From the NCBI GenBank assembly GCA_910587825.1, contig CAJUNJ010000006.1, forward strand, positions 34,732-98,731: a stretch of 64,000 nucleotides of DNA, given 5' to 3'. This DNA comes from an uncultured Christensenellaceae bacterium. GTDB taxonomy: Bacteria > Bacillota > Clostridia > Christensenellales > Borkfalkiaceae. Positions 1 to 9,967 of this stretch are shown piece by piece. Each line of letters opens with the position of its first letter. Within the stretch, counting starts at the first letter, position 1. The notes below the pieces were generated by a model, which saw only the letters and a program-made list of their open reading frames with translations, made no database searches and was not told where the DNA came from. The position numbers were made by a program, and so were the translations under genes.

Positions 1-2910
1 TTTTGGGAAATAGATACATCCGCAAACAAAGTAACCGTAAGAGACAATGAACGCAACGAAGAACAATATTCAACCGACGGCGTAAAATACGTAAGCGAAT
101 ATATTGCCGTTCAGAACGGTTTCGTCACGTCGGCGGAAAAGTACGAATATATTCCGAGGGAAAGCAAAACAGTGACTAAGGCAAAACGTTCTTCGCTGTA
201 TAAAGATTTGTCGGAATTTGTGTTTGCCGACGGAGAAATAAACAAAACCGTTTTAAACAAATTCAGTCAGCCGATAAGCGAAACGACCCGGAATATGCCC
301 GTGTCAGACGGAGTATATGCCGATGTAACCAAGACATACTCATATAACGCGGAACGCAGACTTACGAAAGACGTCACGACGGTAACTTACAAATTCGCAA
401 CTCCCAAAACTTACGTATTAAACAATACTTACGAGTATAACGAATACGGTTTACCGCAAAAGAAAACAAGTTGGGTTACGGGTGAAGAAGCAACCGAAGG
501 CAAGACCGTCGAGGAGTACGTCTACGATAATTACGGCAGACAGACCGAAAGCAAAGTGCATAATACTCTGGACGGCAAAATCTTCTCTTCGGGAGAAAAA
601 GTTTACGATATTTTCGGCAGAGTCATAACGGAGTTTAAACCTGCGGAAACGGTCAGACCCAAATATGAATACGAATATGACGGCACTACTGACAGACTGT
701 CTTCTGTAACTGCGCCCAACGGTTGCGTTATTAATTATACATACGATTTGCAGGACAGGCTTATAAAAATAACCGCAACGGACGGCGAAGAAAACGGCAA
801 TGAAATTTTGTACGATTCGGGTGAAATAACTCAGCTTAAAAGCAAGACCAATACAATAAATTATACCTACGACGGAAGCCGCCGGGTAAGCGGAATAAGC
901 GTGGACGGGGTACTGCACCAAAGCTACGTATACGACACCCACGGCGCGGACGGAAAAGTAAAAAGCCTTGCAAGCATAACGGTTACCAATGCCAAAAACG
1001 AAAGCTTCAAAGCCGAAGAAAATTTTCAGACGGATACCACCACGGCATACTTAAACGGCGGCAAACAGCTTGAAGCCGTATACCGCGCAGACGGCAACGT
1101 CAGCAAAATAAACGACTGCTTAACGGGCGAAGTTTCAACGTTTACATATGACGGAAGCGGGCGGCTTACCAATTACTTGACTGTTAAAGACAACAGTCCC
1201 AAGTATGCGGAAAGCATTACATACGACGGCTACGGTGAAGTGACGAAGATATTCCAAAACGACGATTTCAGCGGACTTATGCGCGCGACACGTGGAATGA
1301 CGTACGATTATACATACGCGGACGGATACGCGCACAGGTTAAAAAGCATAAGCATAAGCGGAGTAGGCACTATATCGCCCGACTATGACAAAACGGACAG
1401 GCATAAGGGCAGGCAGGTAAATTCCGCAAGCGGAAGAAGACTGTTAACCGAAGCAATAAAATACGAAGACGGAGATATATACGCGAAGACGCAGCCTTAT
1501 GAAATAGAATATACGTTTGCGGGCGGAAGTAAGGAGAAGATAAGTTATTCATACGATAAAACGGGCAATATAACAGAAATAATCTATCCGGACGGTAAAG
1601 GCGTAAACTATAAGTACGACAAACTTAACAGGTTAATCCGCGAAGACAACAAGGCGTTGTACAAAACCTATCTGTACAGCTACGACGCAAACGGAAATAT
1701 GCTAAGGAAGGAAGAGGCGATATATACCAAACCCGATTATCCCATAACCGCGCCGAATACGTTAAAGACCGAATACAAGTATGAAAACGGTAAGCTTAAA
1801 CAGGTAGGCGAAGAAGCGTGTATGTATGACGCGGTAGGCAACCCCTTACAGCACAGAATGCGAATGGGCTGGACGGGCAGGAAGTTAACGTCGTGTATGG
1901 GCAGAAGAATAAACGTAATTTTCGAATACGACGGCAGGGGCAGGCGAATAAGAAAGGGAATGACCGAGTATAAGTACGACTCGCAGGACAGGCTGATATC
2001 GTCAAGCGACGGAATGAAATATTTCTATGACGAAGTTGGCGTTGCGGGCTTTATCTACGACGGCGCAACTTATTACTACGTGCGGGACGTACAGAAAAAC
2101 GTAATAGCCATACTTGACAGTAGCGGTGTAAAGGTGGTAGAATACAGTTACGATGCTTGGGGTAACCAGCAGGTAAGCGGAAGCAACACAACGCTTGGCA
2201 ACCTCAACCCATTCAGATACAGAAGTTATTTCTACGATACCGAAACAGAGCTGTACTATTTAAACACAAGATATTACGACCCGATATATTGCAGGTTTAT
2301 AAATATGGACAGCTTCGACTACGCCGACCCCGAACAGCTTAACGGTTTAAACCTTTACGCCTACTGCGCCAACAACCCTGTAATGGGCTACGATCCCGAC
2401 GGAACGTTTGTTATATCGATAGGTATAGTTACGGCATTGGGAATCTTAGCTGCCGGAAGCGCATTATTAGCTTGGATAGAACATACTTTTCATCCGATAC
2501 AAAATGCTTTAAACGATTTGGGTGACGCTATCGGCGATTTGTTTAATGATTTATCGTCTAACATTTCGGGTGGGAATGATTTTTCAACTTTAACATCAAA
2601 TAATGCTATATATTTTGAAACTATTATTTTTGATTATAGTATTCTATATAGATATGGTAAATCGAAATATAAGCCTAAGAGACCGGGGGTTAGAGTTAAA
2701 GGGAAATCTAAGAAAGACGCTGAAGAAAAAGCAAGACGACGTGGCGGTGGTAAGAAGCCGAGATTTCACAAACGTAGATATAATGAAAAATTAGGTAAAT
2801 GGATAGGTCCACATTTTCATCCGGGTGTTCCTAATGGTCATCCATATTATCACGATCATTACTTTTATTTAATTTTTCTATTATTTTATATGAATGATTA
2901 CGAGGAGTAA
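1..2910 (+). CDS. RHS/YD-repeat polymorphic toxin (5' end lies upstream of the window) with variable C-terminal toxin tip
   Basis: Frame 1 is open from base 1, with no stop before the GTG at 172, so the gene enters from upstream. It has many YD repeats (YEYDGTTDRL, YTYDLQDRL, YTYDGSRRV, FTYDGSGRL, YSYDKTGNI, YKYDKLNRL, YSYDANGNM, FEYDGRGRR, YKYDSQDRL, YSYDAWGNQ). These are followed by the RHS core end RYYDPIYCRFINMDSFDY...NPVMGYDPDGT, a hydrophobic segment and a ~110-aa Lys/Arg/His-rich tip. Confidence 0.9.
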   Translation, partial: FWEIDTSANKVTVRDNERNEEQYSTDGVKYVSEYIAVQNGFVTSAEKYEYIPRESKTVTKAKRSSLYKDLSEFVFADGEINKTVLNKFSQPISETTRNMPVSDGVYADVTKTYSYNAERRLTKDVTTVTYKFATPKTYVLNNTYEYNEYGLPQKKTSWVTGEEATEGKTVEEYVYDNYGRQTESKVHNTLDGKIFSSGEKVYDIFGRVITEFKPAETVRPKYEYEYDGTTDRLSSVTAPNGCVINYTYDLQDRLIKITATDGEENGNEILYDSGEITQLKSKTNTINYTYDGSRRVSGISVDGVLHQSYVYDTHGADGKVKSLASITVTNAKNESFKAEENFQTDTTTAYLNGGKQLEAVYRADGNVSKINDCLTGEVSTFTYDGSGRLTNYLTVKDNSPKYAESITYDGYGEVTKIFQNDDFSGLMRATRGMTYDYTYADGYAHRLKSISISGVGTISPDYDKTDRHKGRQVNSASGRRLLTEAIKYEDGDIYAKTQPYEIEYTFAGGSKEKISYSYDKTGNITEIIYPDGKGVNYKYDKLNRLIREDNKALYKTYLYSYDANGNMLRKEEAIYTKPDYPITAPNTLKTEYKYENGKLKQVGEEACMYDAVGNPLQHRMRMGWTGRKLTSCMGRRINVIFEYDGRGRRIRKGMTEYKYDSQDRLISSSDGMKYFYDEVGVAGFIYDGATYYYVRDVQKNVIAILDSSGVKVVEYSYDAWGNQQVSGSNTTLGNLNPFRYRSYFYDTETELYYLNTRYYDPIYCRFINMDSFDYADPEQLNGLNLYAYCANNPVMGYDPDGTFVISIGIVTALGILAAGSALLAWIEHTFHPIQNALNDLGDAIGDLFNDLSSNISGGNDFSTLTSNNAIYFETIIFDYSILYRYGKSKYKPKRPGVRVKGKSKKDAEEKARRRGGGKKPRFHKRRYNEKLGKWIGPHFHPGVPNGHPYYHDHYFYLIFLLFYMNDYEE

Positions 2911-2926
2911 AAAATAAGAAAATTAT

Positions 2927-3325
2927 ATGGACAGAAAAATCGAAGAAATATTTGTCAAAAATTTTATTGTTAAAGACAAGAGGGAACGTACTCTGTTCGA
3001 GTTGTCTTCGGATAAAAAAAGGGATAGCATAATACACCGCATTTTCGGTTTGCTTGATGATAAATACAAAGTTTTTTGCGAATACAAAATCAACTACGAA
3101 GAATTTTTATCGATCATAAAAAAATATGCCGACGTAAAAAAAAATTGTTACGTTATTGCTGACAGCGCCGACGACGGGCAGATATTGCGGTTAGATAAGG
3201 CTTATAATAATATGATGTTTGAATCGGGTGATTATTTTATTTTTTATCAGGATAACATTGTTATAGCTAAAGAGGAAGTGATTTTCGGTTCGCCTTATAA
3301 AAAAATACTTGTAAAGAACGTTTAA
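2927..3325 (+). CDS. putative cognate immunity protein for the RHS toxin tip (no family recognised)
   Basis: A 132-aa ORF starts 17 nt after the rhs stop on the same strand. It is AT-rich like the toxin tip and is followed by a hairpin. This is the canonical rhsI position. Confidence 0.5.
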   Translation: MDRKIEEIFVKNFIVKDKRERTLFELSSDKKRDSIIHRIFGLLDDKYKVFCEYKINYEEFLSIIKKYADVKKNCYVIADSADDGQILRLDKAYNNMMFESGDYFIFYQDNIVIAKEEVIFGSPYKKILVKNV

Positions 3326-3365
3326 TGCTTTTTATATAATGATAGTACAAATCCATATAACCAAA

Positions 3366-3395
3366 GAACGGGTTCGGCATAACGCCGAATCCGTT
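3366..3395 (+). terminator. hairpin after immunity gene 1
   Basis: GAACGGGTTCGGC-ataa-CGCCGAATCCGTT. The same hairpin family recurs at 4747, 6540 and 7350. Confidence 0.5.
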
Positions 3396-3430
3396 ATTAC
3401 TTAGCGTAGAAATCGTATTTTGAAGCCCCA
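3396..3430 (+). repeat. 35-nt orphan-cassette leader, copy 1
   Basis: ATTACTTAGCGTAGAAATCGTATTTTGAAGCCCCA lies directly 5' of the restarted rhs core. It recurs at 4774 and 6567 but is absent from the full-length gene. Confidence 0.8.
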
Positions 3431-4190
3431 CTTGACAGTAGCGGAGCAAAGGTGGTAGAATACAGTTACGACGCTTGGGGGTAACCAGCAGGTAAGCGGA
3501 AGCAACACAACGCTTGGCAACCTCAACCCATTCAGATACAGAAGTTATTTCTACGATACCGAAACAGAGCTGTACTATTTAAACACAAGATATTACGACC
3601 CGATATATTGCAGGTTTATAAATATGGACAGCTTCGACTACGCCGACCCCGAACAGCTTAACGGTTTAAACCTTTACGCCTACTGCGCCAACAACCCTGT
3701 AATGGGCTACGATCCCGACGGAACGTTTGTTATATCGATAGGTATAGTTACGGCATTGGGAATCTTAGCTGCCGGAAGCGCATTATTAGCTTGGATAGAA
3801 CATACTTTTCATCCGATACAAAATGCTTTAAACGATTTGGGTGACGCTATCGGCGATTTGTTTAATGATTTATCGTCTAACATTTCGGGTGGTGATAACT
3901 TTACATACACGGAATTTAACGGCATTGAAGCTATAAATGGTATAAGAGCTGAAGAATTTTTAGCTAACTTAGCTTTAACCTTTGAGGTAAGCAATATTCT
4001 TTTATATGCAGAGCATACAAAAGAAACACCGTGTTTAAAAGATAAGCATCAAAAAGGTCAAAGGCGTAAAGGAAAAGACAAATCAGGCGGAGAAAAAGGA
4101 GATAGAAATAGACCTTACAGAAGGGGAGGGAAACATACAAAACGTCATTTCATTTCTTTTTGTTTAGGTTTGTTTAATATAATATTTTAA
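3431..4190 (+). pseudogene. orphan rhs C-terminal cassette 1 (core fragment + alternative toxin tip), promoterless and frame-broken
   Basis: 3431-3892 matches 2113-2573 of the full-length gene almost base for base. One extra G in a G-run (TGGGGGTAA versus TGGGGTAAC) creates a TAA stop. The DPDGT boundary and hydrophobic segment are retained, and a different ~100-aa basic tip begins after ...NISGG. The ORF track only picks up the internal Met at 3624. Confidence 0.8.
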
Positions 4191-4200
4191 AGAGGTAGTT

Positions 4201-4728
4201 ATGAAAAATTATTTACAGGAGATTAAAGATAAAAATATTCTGTGCGAGATTTATAATGATAAGTCCGATTCGTCAAAGTTTTTTTTAGGCTATATTATAG
4301 CTTACGACGAAAGAGTAATGATAGTAGAGAATATTTCGTCAAACGGAGTTCACGACGGATATTATTGTTTGCCTTTGGAAAGTATTTTCCGTATTTGTTG
4401 GGATACTGTATATATTAGAAATTTTGTAAAATTGTTAGCAGGAAAAGATTTTAAACGCGGAAATTTAAAACTTGACGTTAAAAATTTGTTAAGCGGTTTT
4501 TTGGCTCAAATAAAATCGAGCAAAATTTTATGTAATGTGGAATTGTACAACGATGAATTGAGCGAACTAACGGGATATTTGGAAGATGCAGACGAAGTGA
4601 ATTTGTTAGTAAATTTAATTAATACTGACGGCCTTTCGGACGGCAAGGCATTGATAAGGCTTGAAGATATATCGTGTGTGTCCATAGATACGGAGTATCT
4701 TAAAAAAATCAAAGCATTCTGTTCATAA
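4201..4728 (+). CDS. putative immunity protein of orphan cassette 1 (internally duplicated, ~2 x 80 aa)
   Basis: The 175-aa ORF starts 10 nt after the orphan tip stop, behind the RBS AGAGGT. Its two halves are similar (ILCEIYNDK...ESIFRICWDTVYI and ILCNVELYNDE...EDISCVSIDTEYL). Confidence 0.5.
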   Translation: MKNYLQEIKDKNILCEIYNDKSDSSKFFLGYIIAYDERVMIVENISSNGVHDGYYCLPLESIFRICWDTVYIRNFVKLLAGKDFKRGNLKLDVKNLLSGFLAQIKSSKILCNVELYNDELSELTGYLEDADEVNLLVNLINTDGLSDGKALIRLEDISCVSIDTEYLKKIKAFCS

Positions 4729-4746
4729 TTTGTAACTTTAACGGAG

Positions 4747-4771
4747 CGGGTTCGGCTTTATGCCGAACCCG
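4747..4771 (+). terminator. hairpin after immunity gene 2
   Basis: CGGGTTCGGC-tttat-GCCGAACCCG. Confidence 0.5.
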
Positions 4772-4773
4772 TT

Positions 4774-4808
4774 ATTACTTAGCGTATAAATCGTATTTTG
4801 AAGCCCCA
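4774..4808 (+). repeat. 35-nt orphan-cassette leader, copy 2
   Basis: ATTACTTAGCGTATAAATCGTATTTTGAAGCCCCA differs from copy 1 at one position. Confidence 0.8.
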
Positions 4809-5094
4809 CTTGACAGTAGCGGAGCAAAGGTGGTAGAATACAGATACGACGCATGGGGCAACCGGCAGGTAAGCGGAAGCAACACAACGCTTGGCAACCT
4901 TAACCCGTTCAGATACAGAAGTTATTTCTACGACACCGAAACAGAGCTGTACTATTATTGGTGGTTTTGGAGGCGGAATGTTTTTCGATGATACAATCAA
5001 TGGTAATTTAGGTAATGGTAATTATTTGGGTGAAAGAATAAAAAATAATATATTTGGTGATTTTTTATCAAGGTTAGTTGGACTGTTTAGTTAA
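4809..5094 (+). pseudogene. orphan rhs cassette 2: ~150-nt core fragment joined out of frame to a short Gly-rich tip
   Basis: The core frame reads LDSSGAKVVEYRYDAWGNRQ...NPFRYRSYFYDTETELYY and then stops after 13 more codons. The tip (IIGGFGGGMFFDDTINGNLGNGNYLGERIK..., ORF 4891-5094) is in another frame. There is no DPxG boundary motif. Confidence 0.7.
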
Positions 5095-5109
5095 CTAATA
5101 GGTGAATAA

Positions 5110-5622
5110 ATGTTGGATAAAGCTGATAAATTTTTGGAAGCTGTACTACAAAACGAAGGAACTTTTGTTAAAGGCTTCCCGATAAAAAGCATATATATAG
5201 TTTTATATTTTTCGGTTTGTGCTTTGGGTATTTTGGCGGTGCTGGGCGGATTTTTATATGAAATGCTATGCAACAACGAAATTTTATACGGTTTTCTATT
5301 CGGTATGACTGCAATGTTTTTATGCTTTACCGTTCCTGCTTTCATATTGCTTTATTTTAATTATGGCATATCAAGACAAAAACGCGCAATACTTTCCGAT
5401 GGAAATTCATTTGAAGTTAGTGTAATTCCTTATAAGGTTTATACTGATATAAAAAAGGGTAAAAATTCGGGATTTAAACTTGAAATTAAGTTTGAATGTT
5501 GCGGAAAAGAAGTTGTAATACAAACGGCGGGGCTATTTAAAAAAACAACATTAGTCAAGCCGAACGAGGAAATTCGCATAGTTTATTCGCCAAAGTATAA
5601 TGACGCTTTAATTAAAAGATAA
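5110..5622 (+). CDS. membrane protein, putative immunity for cassette 2
   Basis: The 170-aa protein has about three hydrophobic helices in its N-terminal half (YIVLYFSVCALGILAVLGGFL, LYGFLFGMTAMFLCFTVPAFILLYF). It lies immediately after the orphan tip. Confidence 0.5.
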   Translation: MLDKADKFLEAVLQNEGTFVKGFPIKSIYIVLYFSVCALGILAVLGGFLYEMLCNNEILYGFLFGMTAMFLCFTVPAFILLYFNYGISRQKRAILSDGNSFEVSVIPYKVYTDIKKGKNSGFKLEIKFECCGKEVVIQTAGLFKKTTLVKPNEEIRIVYSPKYNDALIKR

Positions 5623-5630
5623 AACAATTT

Positions 5631-5660
5631 AAGAGTTCGGGCAGGTTGCCCGAACTCTTA
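5631..5660 (+). terminator. hairpin after immunity gene 3
   Basis: AAGAGTTCGGGC-aggt-TGCCCGAACTCTT. Confidence 0.5.
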
Positions 5661-5672
5661 AAATTTACCTCA

Positions 5673-6101
5673 CTTGACAGTAGCGGTGTAAAGGTGGTAG
5701 AATACAGTTACGCCGCCTGGGGTAACCGGCAGTTAAGCGGAAGCAATACAACGCTGGGCAACCTCAACCCGTTCAGATACAGAAGTTATTTCTACGATAC
5801 CTAAAGTAATGGGCTACGACCCCGAGCTTCGTTGTCCAATATCGGTAATATTTATTTAAGCCGTGAAAGAAATCGTGGGCGGGACACTGGTTTAATGGGG
5901 TTAAGCGATAAGCAATTGGAAGATGAGCTAAATGATGCAAAACGAAAACATGATTCTGAAAGAATACAAAAAATTTTAAAGGAAATGAAAATACGCGGTC
6001 TTAGAAATAAACGGAAGCAACGTGGCGGACCGCATATGAGAGGCTTTTTATTAATTTTATTGGGTATAGGCGCAGGATTATATAATGAGAGTAGAAATTA
6101 A
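5673..6101 (+). pseudogene. orphan rhs cassette 3: core fragment with internal deletion, stop and frameshift, followed by a basic tip
   Basis: The core frame reads LDSSGVKVVEYSYAAWGNRQLSG...RYRSYFYDT then TAA. A remnant of the boundary (VMGYDPE) follows. The tip ORF (5832-6101, Lys/Arg-rich, ending in a hydrophobic stretch) is in a third frame. Confidence 0.7.
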
Positions 6102-6531
6102 GGGATTAAACTCAAACGAAGTTTATTGTTGTAAAAAATCCGACATAAAAGCTGTATTCGGGGACACTGATATAAACGTTTATTTTGGCGTATTGAATAT
6201 CAGAAGAGATGAAAGGTCAAACAGCGTCTTTTACCGCCCCGATAAGAAATGCAAGGACAGGATAATTGCCCAATTCATAGTGCATAAGCGTTATATTAAC
6301 AGAATTGGTACTGAATCCGAGCCGCGTTTAAAATTTTTTATTCTTGAAAAGTCATATTATACGGAAGAATTGCATTTAAAATTTGTGACGGAAGTTTTGC
6401 CGGAGTTGAGGAGATTTTACGAAATACATAAAGATGACGACCCGATTATAAATCACGGCGAGTTTTCCTTGACAATAGGGTTAAAAGACGATAATTTCAA
6501 TTTCTATGAAACATTAGAGGGTAAAACTTAA
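6085..6531 (+). CDS. putative immunity protein for cassette 3
   Basis: The 148-aa ORF overlaps the tip ORF stop by 17 nt (translational coupling geometry). No family was recognised. Confidence 0.45.
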   Translation: MRVEIKGLNSNEVYCCKKSDIKAVFGDTDINVYFGVLNIRRDERSNSVFYRPDKKCKDRIIAQFIVHKRYINRIGTESEPRLKFFILEKSYYTEELHLKFVTEVLPELRRFYEIHKDDDPIINHGEFSLTIGLKDDNFNFYETLEGKT

Positions 6532-6539
6532 CCAAAGAG

Positions 6540-6564
6540 CGGGTTCGGCTTTATGCCGAACCCG
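6540..6564 (+). terminator. hairpin after immunity gene 4
   Basis: CGGGTTCGGC-tttat-GCCGAACCCG is identical to the hairpin at 4747. Confidence 0.5.
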
Positions 6565-6566
6565 TT

Positions 6567-6601
6567 ATTACTTAGCGTAGAAATCGTATTTTGAAGCCCC
6601 A
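6567..6601 (+). repeat. 35-nt orphan-cassette leader, copy 3
   Basis: ATTACTTAGCGTAGAAATCGTATTTTGAAGCCCCA is identical to copy 1. Confidence 0.8.
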
Positions 6602-7061
6602 CTTGACAGTAGCGGTATAAAGGTGGTAGAATACAGTTACGACGCATGGGGTAACCAGCAGGTAAGCGGAAGCAACATAAAGCTGGGCAACCTCAACCCG
6701 TTCAGATACAGAAGTTATAGGCGGAACAGTAGGCGGTGCCGGCGGCGCGGGTATGGCAAGCGGAGCTTATACGGCAGGAGCATTTGCCTTAGCCGGCGGA
6801 GGTTCATCATCGGCAGGCACGGCTATTGCAGGCGCAGGAATCTTTGCTTTAAATATTTTGTTTTCAAAAGGATCTGGTCGTAGAATAGGGCATAACAAAC
6901 ATGAAAATCAAATGTGGGACGAAGCAATGCGATTATTGGATATTCATGATAAAGATTTAATACAAAGACTACATCAGAAAAACAGAAAAATGCCATATGC
7001 TGAAACTTTAAAAGAATTAATTAAAAATTTAAAAGAAATTTTGAGTAAATTAGGTCTATAA
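6602..7061 (+). pseudogene. orphan rhs cassette 4: core fragment joined out of frame to a Gly/Ala-rich hydrophobic segment + basic tip
   Basis: The core frame reads LDSSGIKVVEYSYDAWGNQQVSGSNIKLGNLNPFRYRSY and then runs into an Arg-rich nonsense frame (ORF 6623-6883). The plausible tip (GGTVGGAGGAGMASGAYTAGAFALAGG...RRIGHNKHENQMWDEA..., ORF 6753-7061) is shifted by one base. Confidence 0.7.
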
Positions 7062-7289
7062 ATGAGAAAAGTAAATAAAGGCGAAGAGTATTTAAATAAG
7101 TTTCCTAAATTCAAAAAATGGATAAATGAGTGTGTTTGTTGCCACAGAAAAGGATATAACCCCGATATGCCTGAAAAAATCACCGTGGTTGATGGCTCGT
7201 TAGAAGTTTATTTTTTAAAAAAATATTTTAAACCTTTGCGCTTAAATTCTTATGGGCTTTGTGAAATTTGTGAAAAACTTAAAAATTAA
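7062..7289 (+). CDS. small Cys-rich (zinc-ribbon-like) protein, putative immunity for cassette 4
   Basis: The 75-aa ORF starts at the base after the tip stop (TAAATG). It has CVCC near the N-terminal part and CEIC near the C-terminus. Confidence 0.45.
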   Translation: MRKVNKGEEYLNKFPKFKKWINECVCCHRKGYNPDMPEKITVVDGSLEVYFLKKYFKPLRLNSYGLCEICEKLKN

Positions 7290-7349
7290 TTTTTATTAAT
7301 TCAACGGATAGCAAGTAAAAAACAGAAGCAAATACAATAAACGGAAAAG

Positions 7350-7374
7350 CGGGTTCGGCGATATGCCGAACCCG
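7350..7374 (+). terminator. hairpin closing the rhs array
   Basis: CGGGTTCGGC-gatat-GCCGAACCCG followed by TTTTAC. Confidence 0.55.
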
Positions 7375-7428: not shown

Positions 7429-7458
7429 TTGACAATAAAACGTGGTTTGTTATATAAT
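7429..7458 (+). promoter_or_regulatory. sigma-70/SigA-type promoter for the surface-protein gene
   Basis: TTGACA (7429-7434), an 18-nt spacer and TATAAT (7453-7458), about 45 nt upstream of the ATG at 7504. Confidence 0.6.
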
Positions 7459-7503: not shown

Positions 7504-9618
7504 ATGAAATACAAATTTTTCACGAGGGGTCTTTTAGCGGTTCTGGGCTTGATGTGCGCAGTTTGCTTTGCGTTGGGGCTACATTTTACCGAGACGGCTT
7601 TTGCTGCCGATGGCGACCGGATAGACATAGAAAGTTATACCCTTACGCTTGACGTAAACGAATTTACATATTCGGGTTTGGAAATTAAACCGACAGCGAC
7701 CGTAAATAACGGCACGGCAAACCTTGTTGAGGGAACTGATTATACTATTTCGTACGAAAACAACGTAGAAGCGGGCACGGCAACCGTCAAAGCAGAGGGT
7801 AAGGGTGATTATACCGGCACTTTATCCGCACAGTTCACGATAAATCCCGCTACCGATAACGCCTGGCAGAGAAGTGATATTGACTCGGACGTGATTTTCT
7901 ACGGTTCGTACAATCCCGAAGTTCCTGCTTTTACCGTTTGGGCGAAGTACGGTTCCGAAAATGCAATTTTCAAATTTTACGACGGCGACAATAAAGAAAT
8001 TTCCGCCGCCGATCTTGCCACGGCAGATGCCGGCGAATATAAGGTAACGGCTCAGATAGCCGCAACCGGCAGTTATAATGCAATAGAAGAAATATTGACG
8101 GACACTTTCAGGATTTATCCCGCAAGAAATAACTGGACGCAGGCGCCCAAGGTTGTTGAATGGGAGTACGGTAAGTTCGACGCAACCGTCAACCTGTTTA
8201 TGGGTGTTGCCGAACACGGCGACGTCAGGTTCACGATATCTAACCAGAATGAAACTTTTATCAGAGATTTTACCGTTAACGAAGGTGTCGTTACAAACCA
8301 AAATTACGTAAAAATTCTTTCGGATGAACTTACCGCCGGAAAATACACGCTTAGCGCAACTGTCAACGGAGGAAATAACTATCAGGATATACCTGCTACT
8401 CAGGTAGAATTCGAAGTAAGGCAGACTTCGAACGACTGGATGACCTTTCCCGACGTCGTCGAATGGCAGTACGGAAATTATAACAAGGACACCAACCTGT
8501 TTTTAGCTTCCGTAAATTACGGCACGGTGTGGTTCAAAGTCAAAACTGCGGAAGACGGTGAAGACTTAACAAGTGAATTTACCGCGGTAAACGGAATTAT
8601 ACAGGAAGAAGACGGCGAAATTTCAAACGTGCTTTCCAAGTTTGAAAAGGGCAAATATTATGTCAGCGTGCGCGTGGACGTGGGCGACGCCAACCGCGAA
8701 GAGATACACGCAACGGGTTTTGAGTTCGACGTTATTCAAGCCGCGAACGGCTGGCAGGCGTCACCCAACGTAATTGCGTGGGAGTACGGCGGATATAACC
8801 CCAACGTCAATTTGATAATAGGTACGCCTTTGCACGGTACGGCAAAGTTCGTTATAACCGACGGGGAAAATAATCTGACAAGAGAATTTTCACTTTTTGA
8901 AGGCATTATAGACGAGGCGGACAACGGCGACGTTTTGGCAATTATTAAGAATCTGCACGCGGGCGATTACTATCTTGTCGCCACTGTCGCTTCGGACGAA
9001 AACGGCAATTATTCGGCTATAGAAGGTCAGACGCCCTTGCAGTTTACGGTAAATCAGGCGGTCAACGATTGGAAAGTTACGCCCAGCATAGAAAGCTGGG
9101 TAAAGGGCAAATATAACGCGGAAGTCAATTTCGTCACTGCGGAAGCCGAGCACGGCGTTGTCGATTACGTCATTTATAAGACTACGGACGAAGAAAGCAT
9201 TATTTATCAGGTTAGTAACGGAGAAGTAATTGTCGACAATCTTGCACAGGCGGGAGTGGGTTATTATACGTTGAAAGCGACCGTTGCGGCTACGGACGAT
9301 TTCTCGGGCGTGGAAAGGACGTTTACGTTCAACGTCTTTGCGCAGGGACTGCCCTGGTGGGCGATTGTAATTATCGTCGTCGGTGCTTTGGGCATAACCG
9401 CGCTTGTGTTCTTCATTCTTCACCAGAAAGGCGTATTACAGATGCTTACCGAAAAGGTGATAGTTGCTATGCGCACCAAGATGACCGTTGACGCGACGAT
9501 TGCGGCTGTAAGGGCAAACAAGGTTGCGGAGGCGGCGAAACGTTCTGTTGCGGCGGCCGAAGAGGAAGAAAGGCGCAAAGCCGAACAAGACAAAAACGAC
9601 GGAAATTTAAACCAATAA
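7504..9618 (+). CDS. cell-surface protein with signal peptide, MBG/Ig-like domain, five tandem ~100-aa repeats, C-terminal TM anchor and charged tail
   Basis: The RBS is AGAGGT. The signal-like N-terminus is LLAVLGLMCAVCFALG. An MBG-type module (YSGLEIKPT...GTDYTISYENNVEAGTATVKAEGKGDYTG) follows. The repeats share N(N/D/G)W...P.V..WEYG.(Y/F)N..VNL. The C-terminal TM is WWAIVIIVVGALGITALVFFIL. Confidence 0.8.
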   Translation: MKYKFFTRGLLAVLGLMCAVCFALGLHFTETAFAADGDRIDIESYTLTLDVNEFTYSGLEIKPTATVNNGTANLVEGTDYTISYENNVEAGTATVKAEGKGDYTGTLSAQFTINPATDNAWQRSDIDSDVIFYGSYNPEVPAFTVWAKYGSENAIFKFYDGDNKEISAADLATADAGEYKVTAQIAATGSYNAIEEILTDTFRIYPARNNWTQAPKVVEWEYGKFDATVNLFMGVAEHGDVRFTISNQNETFIRDFTVNEGVVTNQNYVKILSDELTAGKYTLSATVNGGNNYQDIPATQVEFEVRQTSNDWMTFPDVVEWQYGNYNKDTNLFLASVNYGTVWFKVKTAEDGEDLTSEFTAVNGIIQEEDGEISNVLSKFEKGKYYVSVRVDVGDANREEIHATGFEFDVIQAANGWQASPNVIAWEYGGYNPNVNLIIGTPLHGTAKFVITDGENNLTREFSLFEGIIDEADNGDVLAIIKNLHAGDYYLVATVASDENGNYSAIEGQTPLQFTVNQAVNDWKVTPSIESWVKGKYNAEVNFVTAEAEHGVVDYVIYKTTDEESIIYQVSNGEVIVDNLAQAGVGYYTLKATVAATDDFSGVERTFTFNVFAQGLPWWAIVIIVVGALGITALVFFILHQKGVLQMLTEKVIVAMRTKMTVDATIAAVRANKVAEAAKRSVAAAEEEERRKAEQDKNDGNLNQ

Positions 9619-9906: not shown

Positions 9907-9967
9907 TTAAAACACCTTAAAATTGCTTGTAATTTTTATTCTGATTATATATAATAATTAAGAAATT

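What the first reader, a model, noticed from the sequence alone, without database searches (positions are those of the whole stretch)
2113..7374. Four orphan rhs cassettes that all restart at the same core nucleotide, three behind an identical 35-nt non-core leader
Orphan rhs-CT/immunity arrays are well known, and are usually explained by displacement through homologous recombination, which leaves core stubs of variable length. Here every stub begins at exactly CTTGACAGTAGCGG (3431, 4809, 5673, 6602), which corresponds to 2113 in the intact gene. Three of the four are preceded by the same 35-nt sequence ATTACTTAGCGTA(G/T)AAATCGTATTTTGAAGCCCCA and the same GGGTTCGGC...GCCGAACCC hairpin, neither of which occurs in the intact gene. 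This points to modular cassettes with a fixed 5' boundary (hairpin, leader, core stub, tip, immunity) that were duplicated or imported as units. That is more reminiscent of a cassette system than of random displacement.
Basis: seen in the sequence. Interest (0 to 1): 0.6.

Follow-up and report, generated by a model that had tools for sequence, protein, structure and literature searches.

The report
Promoter-headed orphan Rhs toxin cassettes
Four spare toxin/antidote cassettes behind an Rhs toxin gene of an uncultured gut Clostridia bacterium all begin at the same base because that base opens a near-perfect promoter written into the toxin gene's own codons; each cassette is therefore probably a separately transcribed antidote unit, a principle known from Salmonella but here trimmed to a sharp, recurrent boundary.

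Summary
CTTGACAGTAGCGG occurs at 2113 in the intact rhs gene and at 3431, 4809, 5673 and 6602. The 35-nt leader and the GGGTTCGGC hairpin precede three stubs and occur nowhere else in this genome.

The shared start is the -35 box of a near-consensus sigma-A promoter (TTGACA-18 nt-TGgTAGAAT) embedded in the core codons L-D-S...V-V-E-Y.

In 151 genomes of the same genus I found 59 short stubs forming 48 different junctions. Of these, 45 keep TTGAC and 46 keep TAnnnT, and 36 retain at most 17 nt of core upstream of the -35. In 43 a strong terminator-type hairpin lies a median of 13 nt upstream.

Synonymous codon choice in full-length genes favours the promoter consensus. Some stubs are reduced to the promoter alone, placed in front of an immunity gene.

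Orphans 3 and 4 are internally deleted versions of cassettes that are intact in other species. Each unit is therefore terminator, promoter, decaying toxin remnant, immunity gene.

Three junctions in the window are copies of one unit spread by homologous recombination. I found no recombinase and no conserved recombination site.

Internal rhs promoters are known (Salmonella P2, EHEC). This scan noted the same idea on other DNA (e1-4816743). No RNA data could be obtained.

The parts
1..2910 (+). 3' two thirds of the intact rhs gene. The frame opens about 1.5 kb upstream of the window and is 1,470 residues in all. The core ends at NNPVMGYDPDG (2371-2403); the C-terminal tip is 2404-2907.
   Evidence: open frame; Pfam RHS_repeat, E 3e-26; alignment to core ends of relatives.
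2114..2143 (+). Core-embedded promoter in the intact gene: TTGACA, 18 nt, TAGAAT with TG two bases before the -10. It is coded by L-D-S...V-V-E-Y. The predicted transcript start is about 2150, some 220 nt before the DPxG codons.
   Evidence: 11 of 12 plus TG; synonymous codons biased toward the consensus; the exact pattern occurs 10 times in the genome, 5 of them here.
2927..3325 (+). Immunity candidate of the expressed tip (132 aa).
   Evidence: homologues at 44-48% identity in arrays of two other species. No Pfam family.
3370..3392 (+). Junction hairpin 1 (GGGTTCGGC ATAAC GCCGAATCC), probably the terminator of the preceding unit.
   Evidence: folding energy about -19 kcal/mol.
3396..3430 (+). 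35-nt leader, copy 1.
3431..3892 (+). Orphan 1 stub: promoter at 3432-3461, then core 3' end and the first part of the tip. It is 100% identical to 2159-2458 and beyond. One extra G (G4 to G5, at about 3477) shifts the frame.
   Evidence: (repeat D2).
3893..4190 (+). Orphan 1 specific tip end (an ORF from the ATG at 3624 runs to 4190).
4201..4728 (+). Immunity candidate of orphan 1 (175 aa).
   Evidence: 99% identical in contigs L074 and L075; 40-43% homologues in two other species, one of them headed only by a terminator plus a core-derived promoter.
4747..4808 (+). Junction unit 2: hairpin 4747-4771 and leader 4774-4808.
4809..5094 (+). Orphan 2: promoter 4810-4839; core stub to about 4952 (ends at ..ELYY, no DPxG); then a short Gly-rich ORF in another frame (4891-5094).
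5110..5622 (+). Immunity candidate of orphan 2 (170 aa, membrane-protein-like).
   Evidence: only a sub-threshold Tetraspanin hit.
5628..5662 (+). Junction hairpin 3 (perfect 16-nt arms, GTTCGGGC...GCCCGAAC core), followed by only 10 nt before the stub and with no leader.
   Evidence: repeat I18.
5673..6101 (+). Orphan 3: promoter 5674-5703; core stub to 5801; stop codon; a 20-nt relic of the DPxG region at 5806-5825; tip remnant ORF 5832-6101. About 340 nt are missing compared with the homologous intact cassette of another species.
   Evidence: (repeat D7).
6085..6531 (+). Immunity candidate of orphan 3 (148 aa).
   Evidence: 39-41% homologues in three other species.
6540..6601 (+). Junction unit 4: hairpin 6540-6564 and leader 6567-6601.
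6602..7061 (+). Orphan 4: promoter 6603-6632; core stub to 6718; then a Gly/Ala-rich segment and the tip end in a shifted frame. About 400 nt are missing compared with intact homologues.
7062..7289 (+). Immunity candidate of orphan 4 (75 aa).
   Evidence: 61-68% homologues in three other species.
7350..7374 (+). Terminal copy of the same hairpin, closing the array. It is followed by GTTTTACTG..., not by the leader.

Best explanation
Each orphan is an autonomous transcription unit: terminator hairpin of the preceding unit, then a sigma-A-type promoter, then a toxin remnant, then the immunity gene.

The promoter (TTGACA, 18 nt, TGgTAGAAT) is written into the Rhs core codons (I)-L-D-S...V-V-E-Y, so every displaced tip carries it along. 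The common stub start at CTTGACAG is the upstream edge of that promoter.

Two processes give the fixed boundary. First, within this array one junction unit (hairpin, leader, promoter-stub) has been copied by homologous recombination between stubs, and cassettes are exchanged between such units. Second, across the genus, core DNA upstream of the -35 is dispensable and is deleted or decays, whereas loss of the promoter would silence the downstream immunity gene. Independent junctions therefore pile up just upstream of the -35.

The toxin parts of orphans 1-4 are dead (a frameshift, or internal deletions that remove the DPxG cleavage region). In this genome the array therefore works mainly as a set of separately expressed immunity genes, while keeping 110-460 nt of homology to the expressed gene.

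Shown: the anatomy, the recurrence, the codon bias and the decay of the toxin parts. Inferred: promoter activity, terminator activity and the selective reason for the boundary.
For: - **Promoter motif.** Matches of 11/12 plus TG lie at 2114, 3432, 4810, 5674 and 6603. The exact pattern occurs only 10 times in the 1.8-Mb genome. At least two of the other five sit about 25 nt before an ORF in non-coding DNA.
- **Invariant hexamers.** In seven stub copies (window plus the conspecific contig L074) all differences fall in the spacer or downstream; both hexamers never vary.
- **Genus survey.** 63 of 151 genomes carry the core. There are 59 short stubs in 48 junction types. Of these, 45 have TTGAC and 46 have TAnnnT; 27 retain at most 10 nt and 36 at most 17 nt of core upstream of the -35.
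- **Hairpins.** 43 of 48 junctions have a hairpin of -8 kcal/mol or stronger, mostly -17 to -37, a median of 13 nt upstream.
- **Codon test on 43 clusters of long or full-length cores.** Hexamer matches are 9.47/12 against 7.85 for synonymous recodings (sd of the mean 0.15). TG is present in 60% against 13%. Of three adjacent Val codons, the spacer one is mixed, the next is GTG in 29 of 40 and the next is GTA in 35 of 36. The following codon always ends in A (CAA 9 of 9, background 28%).
- **Stubs with an unrelated spacer.** L027 and L044 keep only 4-12 of 18 spacer bases, yet have TTGAC re-registered at 17 nt and an intact -10.
- **Promoter-only stubs.** In L035 the homologue of this window's orphan-1 immunity gene is headed by terminator plus core-derived promoter alone. 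L036 and L045 are similar.
- **Other stub classes.** Stubs starting at EYDGKGRR, FYRKD or YDPETGRF also begin right after a hairpin plus TTGACA-17/18-TAnAAT module. A distant Clostridia MAG puts non-core promoters in front of each of its three stubs.
- **Decay of the toxin parts.** Orphans 3 and 4 lack about 340 and 400 nt found in homologous intact cassettes, while the promoter and the immunity gene remain.
- **Precedent.** Internal rhs promoters have been shown experimentally in Salmonella (PMC7043789) and EHEC (PMC7618764).
Against:
- The window's own hairpins have a poor T tract on the + strand, and the scan scored them as terminator-like only on the - strand.
- Three, perhaps all four, junctions in this window are copies of one ancestor, so the window alone does not demonstrate convergence.
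- The genomes surveyed are related and cassettes move between them, so the 48 junction types are not 48 independent events and the codon test overstates significance.
- 24 long stubs (75-446 codons of upstream frame) show that trimming is not obligatory.
- Why trimming should so often stop within about 10 nt of the -35, rather than merely anywhere upstream of it, is explained only by an assumed deletion bias.
- The 35-nt leader has no assigned role. Its resemblance to the core upstream of 2113 is not significant (p = 0.12).
Confidence: 0.6

Rival explanations
1. Pure history: one ancestral orphan junction was tandemly duplicated and the tips and immunity genes were later replaced. The shared boundary is inherited, and the promoter-like sequence is a by-product of conserved amino acids.
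For: The three hairpin-leader-stub units are 93-97% identical. Orphan 3's hairpin is a diverged member of the same GTTCGG...CCGAAC type. Related junctions are shared between species together with related immunity genes, for example L024 and L041.
Against: Dozens of unrelated hairpins and flanks in other species abut the same position. Synonymous sites are biased toward the promoter consensus beyond what the protein sequence requires. Stubs with non-homologous spacers and promoter-only stubs keep exactly the two hexamers.
Confidence: 0.15
2. A dedicated site-specific cassette system (integron-like or rAID-like): the hairpin, or the hairpin plus CTTGAC, is a recombination site at which cassettes are inserted or excised by a recombinase.
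For: Junction units begin at the hairpin, directly after unrelated immunity genes, both here and in G109 and G111. One hairpin sequence, loop included (GGCGGGTAGAAATACCCGCC), recurs in rhs arrays of five or six species behind unrelated genes and is rare elsewhere: 14 hits in 151 genomes.
Against: I found no recombinase gene among the five ORFs (about 10 kb) upstream of the rhs gene or in the single ORF next downstream that I scanned. Most hairpins are unrelated in sequence and have A/T-tract flanks typical of intrinsic terminators. The only sequence common to all junctions is a -35 and a -10 at promoter spacing. Stub copies are mosaics, as expected from homologous recombination.
Confidence: 0.07
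3. The promoter chiefly serves to make the C-terminal toxin inside the cell together with its immunity protein, as a toxin-antitoxin-like addiction pair (the Salmonella model). Alternatively, cassettes 2-4 are independent small toxin genes. On this reading the boundary reflects selfish maintenance of the cassettes rather than immunity to neighbours.
For: The Salmonella and EHEC precedents (PMC7043789, PMC7618764). Orphan 1 has an ORF from the ATG at 3624 that spans the DPxG region and the tip. Small hydrophobic or Gly-rich ORFs follow the truncated stubs here and in L074.
Against: Orphan 1 is frameshifted before that ATG, which also has no clear ribosome-binding site. Orphans 3 and 4 are internally deleted versions of longer tips. 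In other species the promoter heads immunity genes with no toxin part at all.
Confidence: 0.12
4. The boundary marks the 5' limit of nucleotide conservation between diverged rhs genes, so recombination products can only start there.
For: None beyond the coincidence that identity between stubs and the intact gene starts at 2112-2113.
Against: In 43 clusters of long or full-length cores, the 30 nt upstream of the -35 are at least as conserved (majority-base frequency 0.78-0.81) as the 60 nt downstream (0.67-0.77).
Confidence: 0.02

Closest known systems
Internal promoter P2 of Salmonella Typhimurium rhs (Starsta et al. 2020, PMC7043789) and the internal promoters of EHEC rhsF/rhsG (PMC7618764)
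   Same: A sigma-70-type promoter lies inside the conserved core coding sequence, upstream of the PxxxxDPxGL cleavage motif. It is present in both the main and the orphan copies and drives the tip plus the immunity gene independently of the full-length gene.
   Different: The position is different: P2 lies in YFDDETGLHYN with its transcript start 89 nt before the motif, whereas here the promoter lies in ILDSSG..VVEY about 220 nt before it. The host is a Gram-positive-type gut Clostridia lineage with no T6SS. Activity here is only predicted. The orphan stubs here are trimmed to the promoter and abut a terminator; by my estimate from the clone coordinates and start site given in PMC3967940 and PMC7043789, the Salmonella LT2 orphan keeps about 268 nt of stub, extending roughly 150 nt beyond P2.
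Orphan rhs-CT/rhsI and cdiA-CT/cdiI modules formed by C-terminal displacement (Poole et al. 2011, PMC3150448; Koskiniemi et al. 2014, PMC3967940; Jackson et al. 2009, cited from memory)
   Same: A main gene is followed by tip/immunity pairs that keep a piece of the conserved core. Stubs are mosaics, and cassette content differs between strains through homologous recombination.
   Different: The stub is usually explained as a recombination handle of arbitrary length. Here the 5' end is sharply defined and coincides with a promoter, and the toxin halves are decaying while the promoter and the immunity gene persist.
Poly-immunity loci and orphan immunity arrays of polymorphic toxin systems (Zhang et al. 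2012, PMC3482391; Martinkus et al. 2026, seen only as a citation in bioRxiv 10.64898/2026.07.13.738213)
   Same: Rows of immunity genes with or without toxin remnants lie downstream of an Rhs toxin and are thought to protect against neighbours' toxins.
   Different: In the papers I could read, those descriptions do not tie each immunity gene to a promoter derived from the toxin's core.
Integron gene cassettes and the recombinase-associated rAID-1 immunity islands of Bacteroidales (Ross et al. 2019, cited from memory)
   Same: One-directional arrays of short cassettes are separated by hairpin-forming sequences.
   Different: There is no integrase next to the array, no conserved attC-like site, each cassette has its own promoter instead of a single Pc, and the hairpins are terminator-like.

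Membership tests
Rhs/YD-repeat polymorphic toxin locus with orphan tips | Long protein with RHS/YD repeats | tested here: met
   Pfam RHS_repeat, E 3e-26, four stretches; 1,470-residue frame.
Rhs/YD-repeat polymorphic toxin locus with orphan tips | Conserved core end with a PxxxxDPxG-type cleavage motif, followed by a variable tip | tested here: met
   NNPVMGYDPDG at 2371-2403 aligns with the core ends of relatives. The tips diverge after it. Cleavage itself is not testable here.
Rhs/YD-repeat polymorphic toxin locus with orphan tips | Small immunity gene directly after each tip | tested here: inconclusive
   Five intact ORFs of 75-175 aa lie in the expected places. Four have 39-68% homologues in arrays of other species. 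None has a Pfam family, and the function is untested.
Rhs/YD-repeat polymorphic toxin locus with orphan tips | Downstream tips retain a piece of core homologous to the main gene | tested here: met
   Five copies at 90-97% identity over 110 nt; orphan 1 is identical over more than 400 nt.
Core-embedded internal rhs promoter (Salmonella P2 type) | -35 and -10 hexamers at promoter spacing inside the core, in both main and orphan copies | tested here: met
   conserved in 45-46 of 48 junction types; supported by codon bias.
Core-embedded internal rhs promoter (Salmonella P2 type) | Mapped transcription start and reporter activity | not testable with these tools
Core-embedded internal rhs promoter (Salmonella P2 type) | Same position in the core as P2 (YFDDETGLHYN) | tested here: not met
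   The P2 sequence quoted in PMC7043789 corresponds to YFYDTETELYY here (about 2230-2262). The promoter found here is about 100 nt further upstream. A P2-like position is, however, used by four junctions in G141 (L062).
Integron-like or rAID-like site-specific cassette array | Tyrosine recombinase gene adjoining the array | tested here: not met
The upstream ORFs are a LytTR regulator, a GHKL kinase, two GH3 enzymes and a He_PIG protein. The next downstream ORF has no Pfam match.
Integron-like or rAID-like site-specific cassette array | Conserved recombination site at every cassette boundary | tested here: not met
   There are 48 junction types with mostly unrelated hairpins. Only the promoter hexamers are common to all.

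The most novel reading that the evidence does not exclude
In this lineage the Rhs core has evolved a built-in promoter, so that any tip displaced from the expressed gene automatically becomes a self-expressing immunity cassette. The terminator-plus-promoter junction derived from it has become a portable module. It is conserved across species behind unrelated immunity genes, sometimes reduced to the 31-nt promoter alone, and it both insulates cassettes transcriptionally and supplies the homology by which they are shuffled without a recombinase. The stub of an orphan would then be primarily an expression signal and not merely a recombination handle.
Probability: 0.45. Interest if true: 0.6.

Novelty: new variant of a known kind. 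Interest (0 to 1): 0.45.

Why it matters
Orphan toxin tips are usually read as silent spares whose core stub exists to allow recombination into the expressed gene. If the stub's conserved 5' edge is a promoter, that explains how orphan immunity genes stay expressed, and therefore protective and selectable, after displacement. It also explains why stubs persist while toxins decay, and why arrays are punctuated by terminators.

The finding gives a simple sequence rule (terminator, TTGACA-17/18-TAnAAT, stub) for finding and delimiting immunity cassettes in uncultured gut Firmicutes. It extends the internal-promoter principle, so far shown only in Enterobacteria, to a distant lineage and a different position in the core, which suggests that it evolved repeatedly.

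Tried and rejected
- **Leader in other genomes.** An exact 30-nt pattern of the leader found nothing in 185,579 species genomes. The only hits in metagenome contigs were two contigs of the same species. blastn-short against all fetched loci found nothing beyond those. By eye, one G007 junction (L024, after a different hairpin) begins TTATTATTTAGCTTAG, against TTATTACTTAGCGTAG here. I did not establish that this is homology.
- **Leader as decayed core.** Local alignment to the 52 nt upstream of 2113 scores no better than shuffles (p = 0.12), so I dropped this as a claim.
- **Known RNA families.** There is no credible Rfam match in the array; the only hits are a tRNA at 9967 and noise.
- **Hairpin as a genome-wide repeat (REP- or MITE-like).** Rejected, because it is confined to this locus.
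- **Boundary as the limit of homology.** Rejected.
- **Pfam on tips and immunity genes.** Nothing above threshold.
- **First boundary estimate.** My first estimate, made against the nearest main gene, gave spurious negative values where no close reference existed. I replaced it with an upper bound taken over all references, which overestimates the retained core.

Full report
**Observation.** CTTGACAGTAGCGG occurs five times in the window, at 2113, 3431, 4809, 5673 and 6602, all on the + strand. Only 0.22 matches are expected by chance even with two mismatches allowed. Position 2113 lies in an intact rhs frame of 1,470 residues that begins about 1.5 kb upstream of the window and ends at 2910. 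The frame carries RHS repeats and a core end NNPVMGYDPDG at 2371-2403.

The 35-nt leader is present at 3396, 4774 and 6567 and nowhere else in the 1.8-Mb, 30-contig assembly. The GGGTTCGGC...GCCGAACCC hairpin precedes those three leaders and also closes the array at 7350-7374. Orphan 3 has another hairpin (5628-5662) and no leader.

An alignment of the five copies shows that identity to the intact gene starts at 2112-2113 in all four orphans. It ends at four different places:
- Orphan 1 runs on for about 460 nt (100% identical over 2159-2458) but has one extra G.
- Orphans 2, 3 and 4 lose the core after about 145, 130 and 117 nt, before the DPxG region.

**What the shared start is.** The promoter scan found TTGACA, 18 nt, TAGAAT, with TG two bases before the -10, at 2114, 3432, 4810, 5674 and 6603 (11 of 12 hexamer positions). 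The stub therefore begins one base before a -35 box. The motif is coded by L-D-S...V-V-E-Y of the core.

The exact pattern TTGACA-N15-TGnTAnAAT occurs only ten times on both strands of the whole genome, five of them here. At least two of the other five lie in non-coding DNA about 25 nt before an ORF. Among seven stub copies (five in the window, two in a conspecific contig) every difference lies in the spacer or downstream, and the hexamers are invariant.

**Relatives.** Record titles of the closest public loci identify uncultured Clostridia, Christensenella-like gut MAGs. A core query matched 63 of 151 genomes of the same genus. I fetched about 50 loci and anchored every copy on the YDAWG motif. 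This gave 30 full-length genes, 24 long stubs (75-446 open codons upstream) and 59 short stubs.

The short stubs fall into 48 junction types by their upstream flank:
- 45 have TTGAC at the -35 position (two of them shifted by one base), and 46 have TAnnnT at the -10.
- The amount of core retained upstream of the -35, taken as an upper bound over all references, is at most 10 nt in 27 types and at most 17 nt in 36 types.
- No short stub retains more than about 52 nt.
- 43 of the 48 have a stable hairpin (mostly -17 to -37 kcal/mol, often with A and T tracts on either side) ending a median of 13 nt before the -35.

The arrangement terminator-like hairpin, short T-rich spacer, -35 is thus the rule in this genus, behind many unrelated hairpins and immunity genes.

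**Is the promoter-like sequence more than a consequence of the protein sequence?**
- In 43 clusters (below 85% identity) of long or full-length cores, the two hexamers match the consensus at 9.47 of 12 positions. Synonymous recodings drawn from the genes' own codon usage give 7.85 (sd of the mean 0.15).
- TG is present in 60% of the clusters against 13% for recodings.
- 27 of 43 clusters reach 10 of 12, against 12% expected.
- The three adjacent valine codons act as an internal control. The one in the spacer is mixed (GTT 10, GTA 6, GTG 4, GTC 3). The next is GTG in 29 of 40, which supplies TG. The next is GTA in 35 of 36, which supplies TA of the -10.
- The following codon varies in amino acid (E, K, Q, R) but always ends in A: CAA 9 of 9 against a background of 28%, AGA 8 of 8 against 42%.
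- Third-position conservation peaks at exactly these codons.

The genomes are related, so these figures overstate independence, but their direction is specific to the promoter consensus.

**Natural experiments.**
- Three stubs have a spacer that no longer resembles the core (4-12 of 18 positions). In two of them TTGAC sits one base out of register, which gives a 17-nt spacer. All three keep a perfect or near-perfect -10.
- Several units keep only the promoter. In L035 (G047) a hairpin is followed by TTGACAGTAACGGTAT..TAAAAT, then non-core sequence and, about 100 nt later, a homologue (40% identity, E 1e-32) of this window's orphan-1 immunity gene, with no toxin part. L036 and L045 are similar.
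- Stub classes with other boundaries also start directly after a hairpin plus TTGACA-17/18-TAnAAT module. These are long stubs beginning at EYDGKGRR in G087, stubs beginning at FYRKD in G015, G144 and G090, and very short stubs beginning at YDPETGRF in G141, a position comparable with Salmonella P2.
- A distant Clostridia MAG (L103), whose core lacks the embedded motif, has a separate TTGACA-17/18-TATACT/TATGAT promoter in front of each of its three stubs.

Whatever the break point, a promoter sits at the 5' edge of the unit.

**State of the cassettes in the window.**
- Orphan 1 is frameshifted.
- Orphans 3 and 4 align with homologous cassettes that are intact in other species, but lack about 340 and about 400 nt respectively. 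The missing part spans the end of the core, the DPxG region and the start of the tip. In orphan 4 the two remaining parts are out of frame.
- All five immunity-position ORFs are intact, and four have 39-68% homologues in arrays of other species.

The parts that persist are the promoter, the immunity gene and the hairpin.

**How the identical junctions arose.** The repeated unit starts about 10 nt before the hairpin and follows three unrelated immunity genes. The hairpin alone follows the last ORF. Two metagenome contigs of the same species are 99% identical to 3714-4956. They carry the same hairpin-leader-stub unit but continue with a different short tip (with or without a small membrane ORF), then a new hairpin, then a stub with a complete core end. 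Stub copies are mosaics of one another.

This fits exchange and insertion of cassettes by homologous recombination between junction units. A fragment or circle with a stub at each end inserts into the core of the expressed gene and reproduces the junction exactly.

A second hairpin family (GGCGGGTAGAAATACCCGCC) illustrates the same thing across species. It has only 14 hits in 151 genomes, at least 10 of them inside rhs arrays of five or six species. Each is behind an unrelated gene and followed by a T tract and the -35.

I found no recombinase next to the array, and no sequence common to all junctions other than the promoter hexamers.

**Rivals.**
- Inheritance of one junction accounts for most of this window, but not for the genus-wide pattern, the codon bias or the promoter-only stubs.
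- A limit-of-homology explanation fails, because full-length cores are as conserved in the 30 nt upstream of the -35 as downstream.
- A site-specific cassette mechanism cannot be excluded, but it has no positive evidence beyond hairpin-delimited units.
- A toxin-antitoxin-like role for internally made toxin, as in Salmonella, is possible for intact orphans elsewhere, but it does not fit the dead toxin parts here.

**Comparison with what is known.**
- Internal promoters in the rhs core that transcribe tip plus immunity gene independently of the full-length gene were shown in Salmonella (P2, transcript start 89 nt before PxxxxDPxGL, present in main and orphan; PMC7043789) and in EHEC rhsF/rhsG (PMC7618764).
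- Orphan arrays and their recombination into the main gene are well described (PMC3150448; PMC3967940).
- The differences here are the lineage (gut Clostridia, no T6SS), the position of the promoter in the core, the tight terminator-promoter junction, and the recurrent trimming of stubs to the promoter.
- I found no paper stating that the 5' boundary of orphan stubs coincides with a promoter. My searches cover open-access texts only.
- This scan has noted the same idea on other DNA (e1-4816743, a 'portable terminator-promoter junction module derived from the RHS coding sequence'; e1-5028893). I take these as leads and not as evidence.

**Limits.** The window's hairpins lack a good T tract on the + strand. 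The leader remains unexplained. Junction types are not independent events.

**Verdict.** The fixed boundary is best explained by a core-embedded promoter that each displaced cassette needs in order to express its immunity gene.

Noticed in passing
window 7429-7458: A perfect 12/12 promoter (TTGACA, 18 nt, TATAAT) lies 46 nt before the 704-aa repeat-rich surface-protein ORF (7504-9618) that follows the array. That ORF has no Pfam match.
   Followed up: partly
L074 (about 1430-1450) versus L075 (about 870-1270): Two conspecific metagenome contigs differ by about 400 nt that encode a small membrane ORF after the short tip. It is present in L075 and precisely absent in L074, so immunity-position genes are gained or lost within the species.
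   Followed up: partly
genus loci: G015:C8 (L025), G076:C28 (L046), G138:C11 (L045), G144:C5 (L061), G054:C12 (L048): The hairpin GGCGGGTAGAAATACCCGCC, loop included, is conserved in rhs arrays of five or six species behind unrelated genes, and is otherwise rare (14 hits in 151 genomes). Either a terminator-promoter module spreads between species, or there is unexplained constraint on the loop.
   Followed up: partly
L062 (G141:C7), four junctions at locus positions 4029, 7155, 8331 and 9543: Very short stubs start at YDPETGRF. Each is headed by a hairpin plus TTGACGCAC..TTAAAATATGGTAAAAT. This promoter position is roughly equivalent to Salmonella P2, so two different core positions serve as cassette heads within one genus.
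   Followed up: no
core codons -17 to -15 relative to YDAWG (window about 2098-2106, and consensus GGCAATATAATAGCC in relatives): Many relatives have an exact TATAAT in the codons N-I-I just upstream of the -35. Five or six 'medium' stubs begin at CAGGGCAAT, about 20-23 nt upstream of the -35. This may be an AT-rich upstream element or may be chance.
   Followed up: no
G000 contig C6, about 9-11 kb upstream of the rhs start (L155 780-2748): A LytTR response regulator and a GHKL histidine kinase (an Agr/bacteriocin-type pair), then two GH3 glycosidases and a He_PIG Ig-domain protein, lie upstream of rhs. No secretion-system genes were seen, and the Rhs protein has no obvious signal peptide.
   Followed up: partly
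window 4891-5094; L074 about 1255-1405: Truncated stubs are followed by short Gly-rich or hydrophobic ORFs (about 45-67 aa) in a frame different from the core. They look more like small membrane peptides than like remnants of enzymatic toxins.
   Followed up: no
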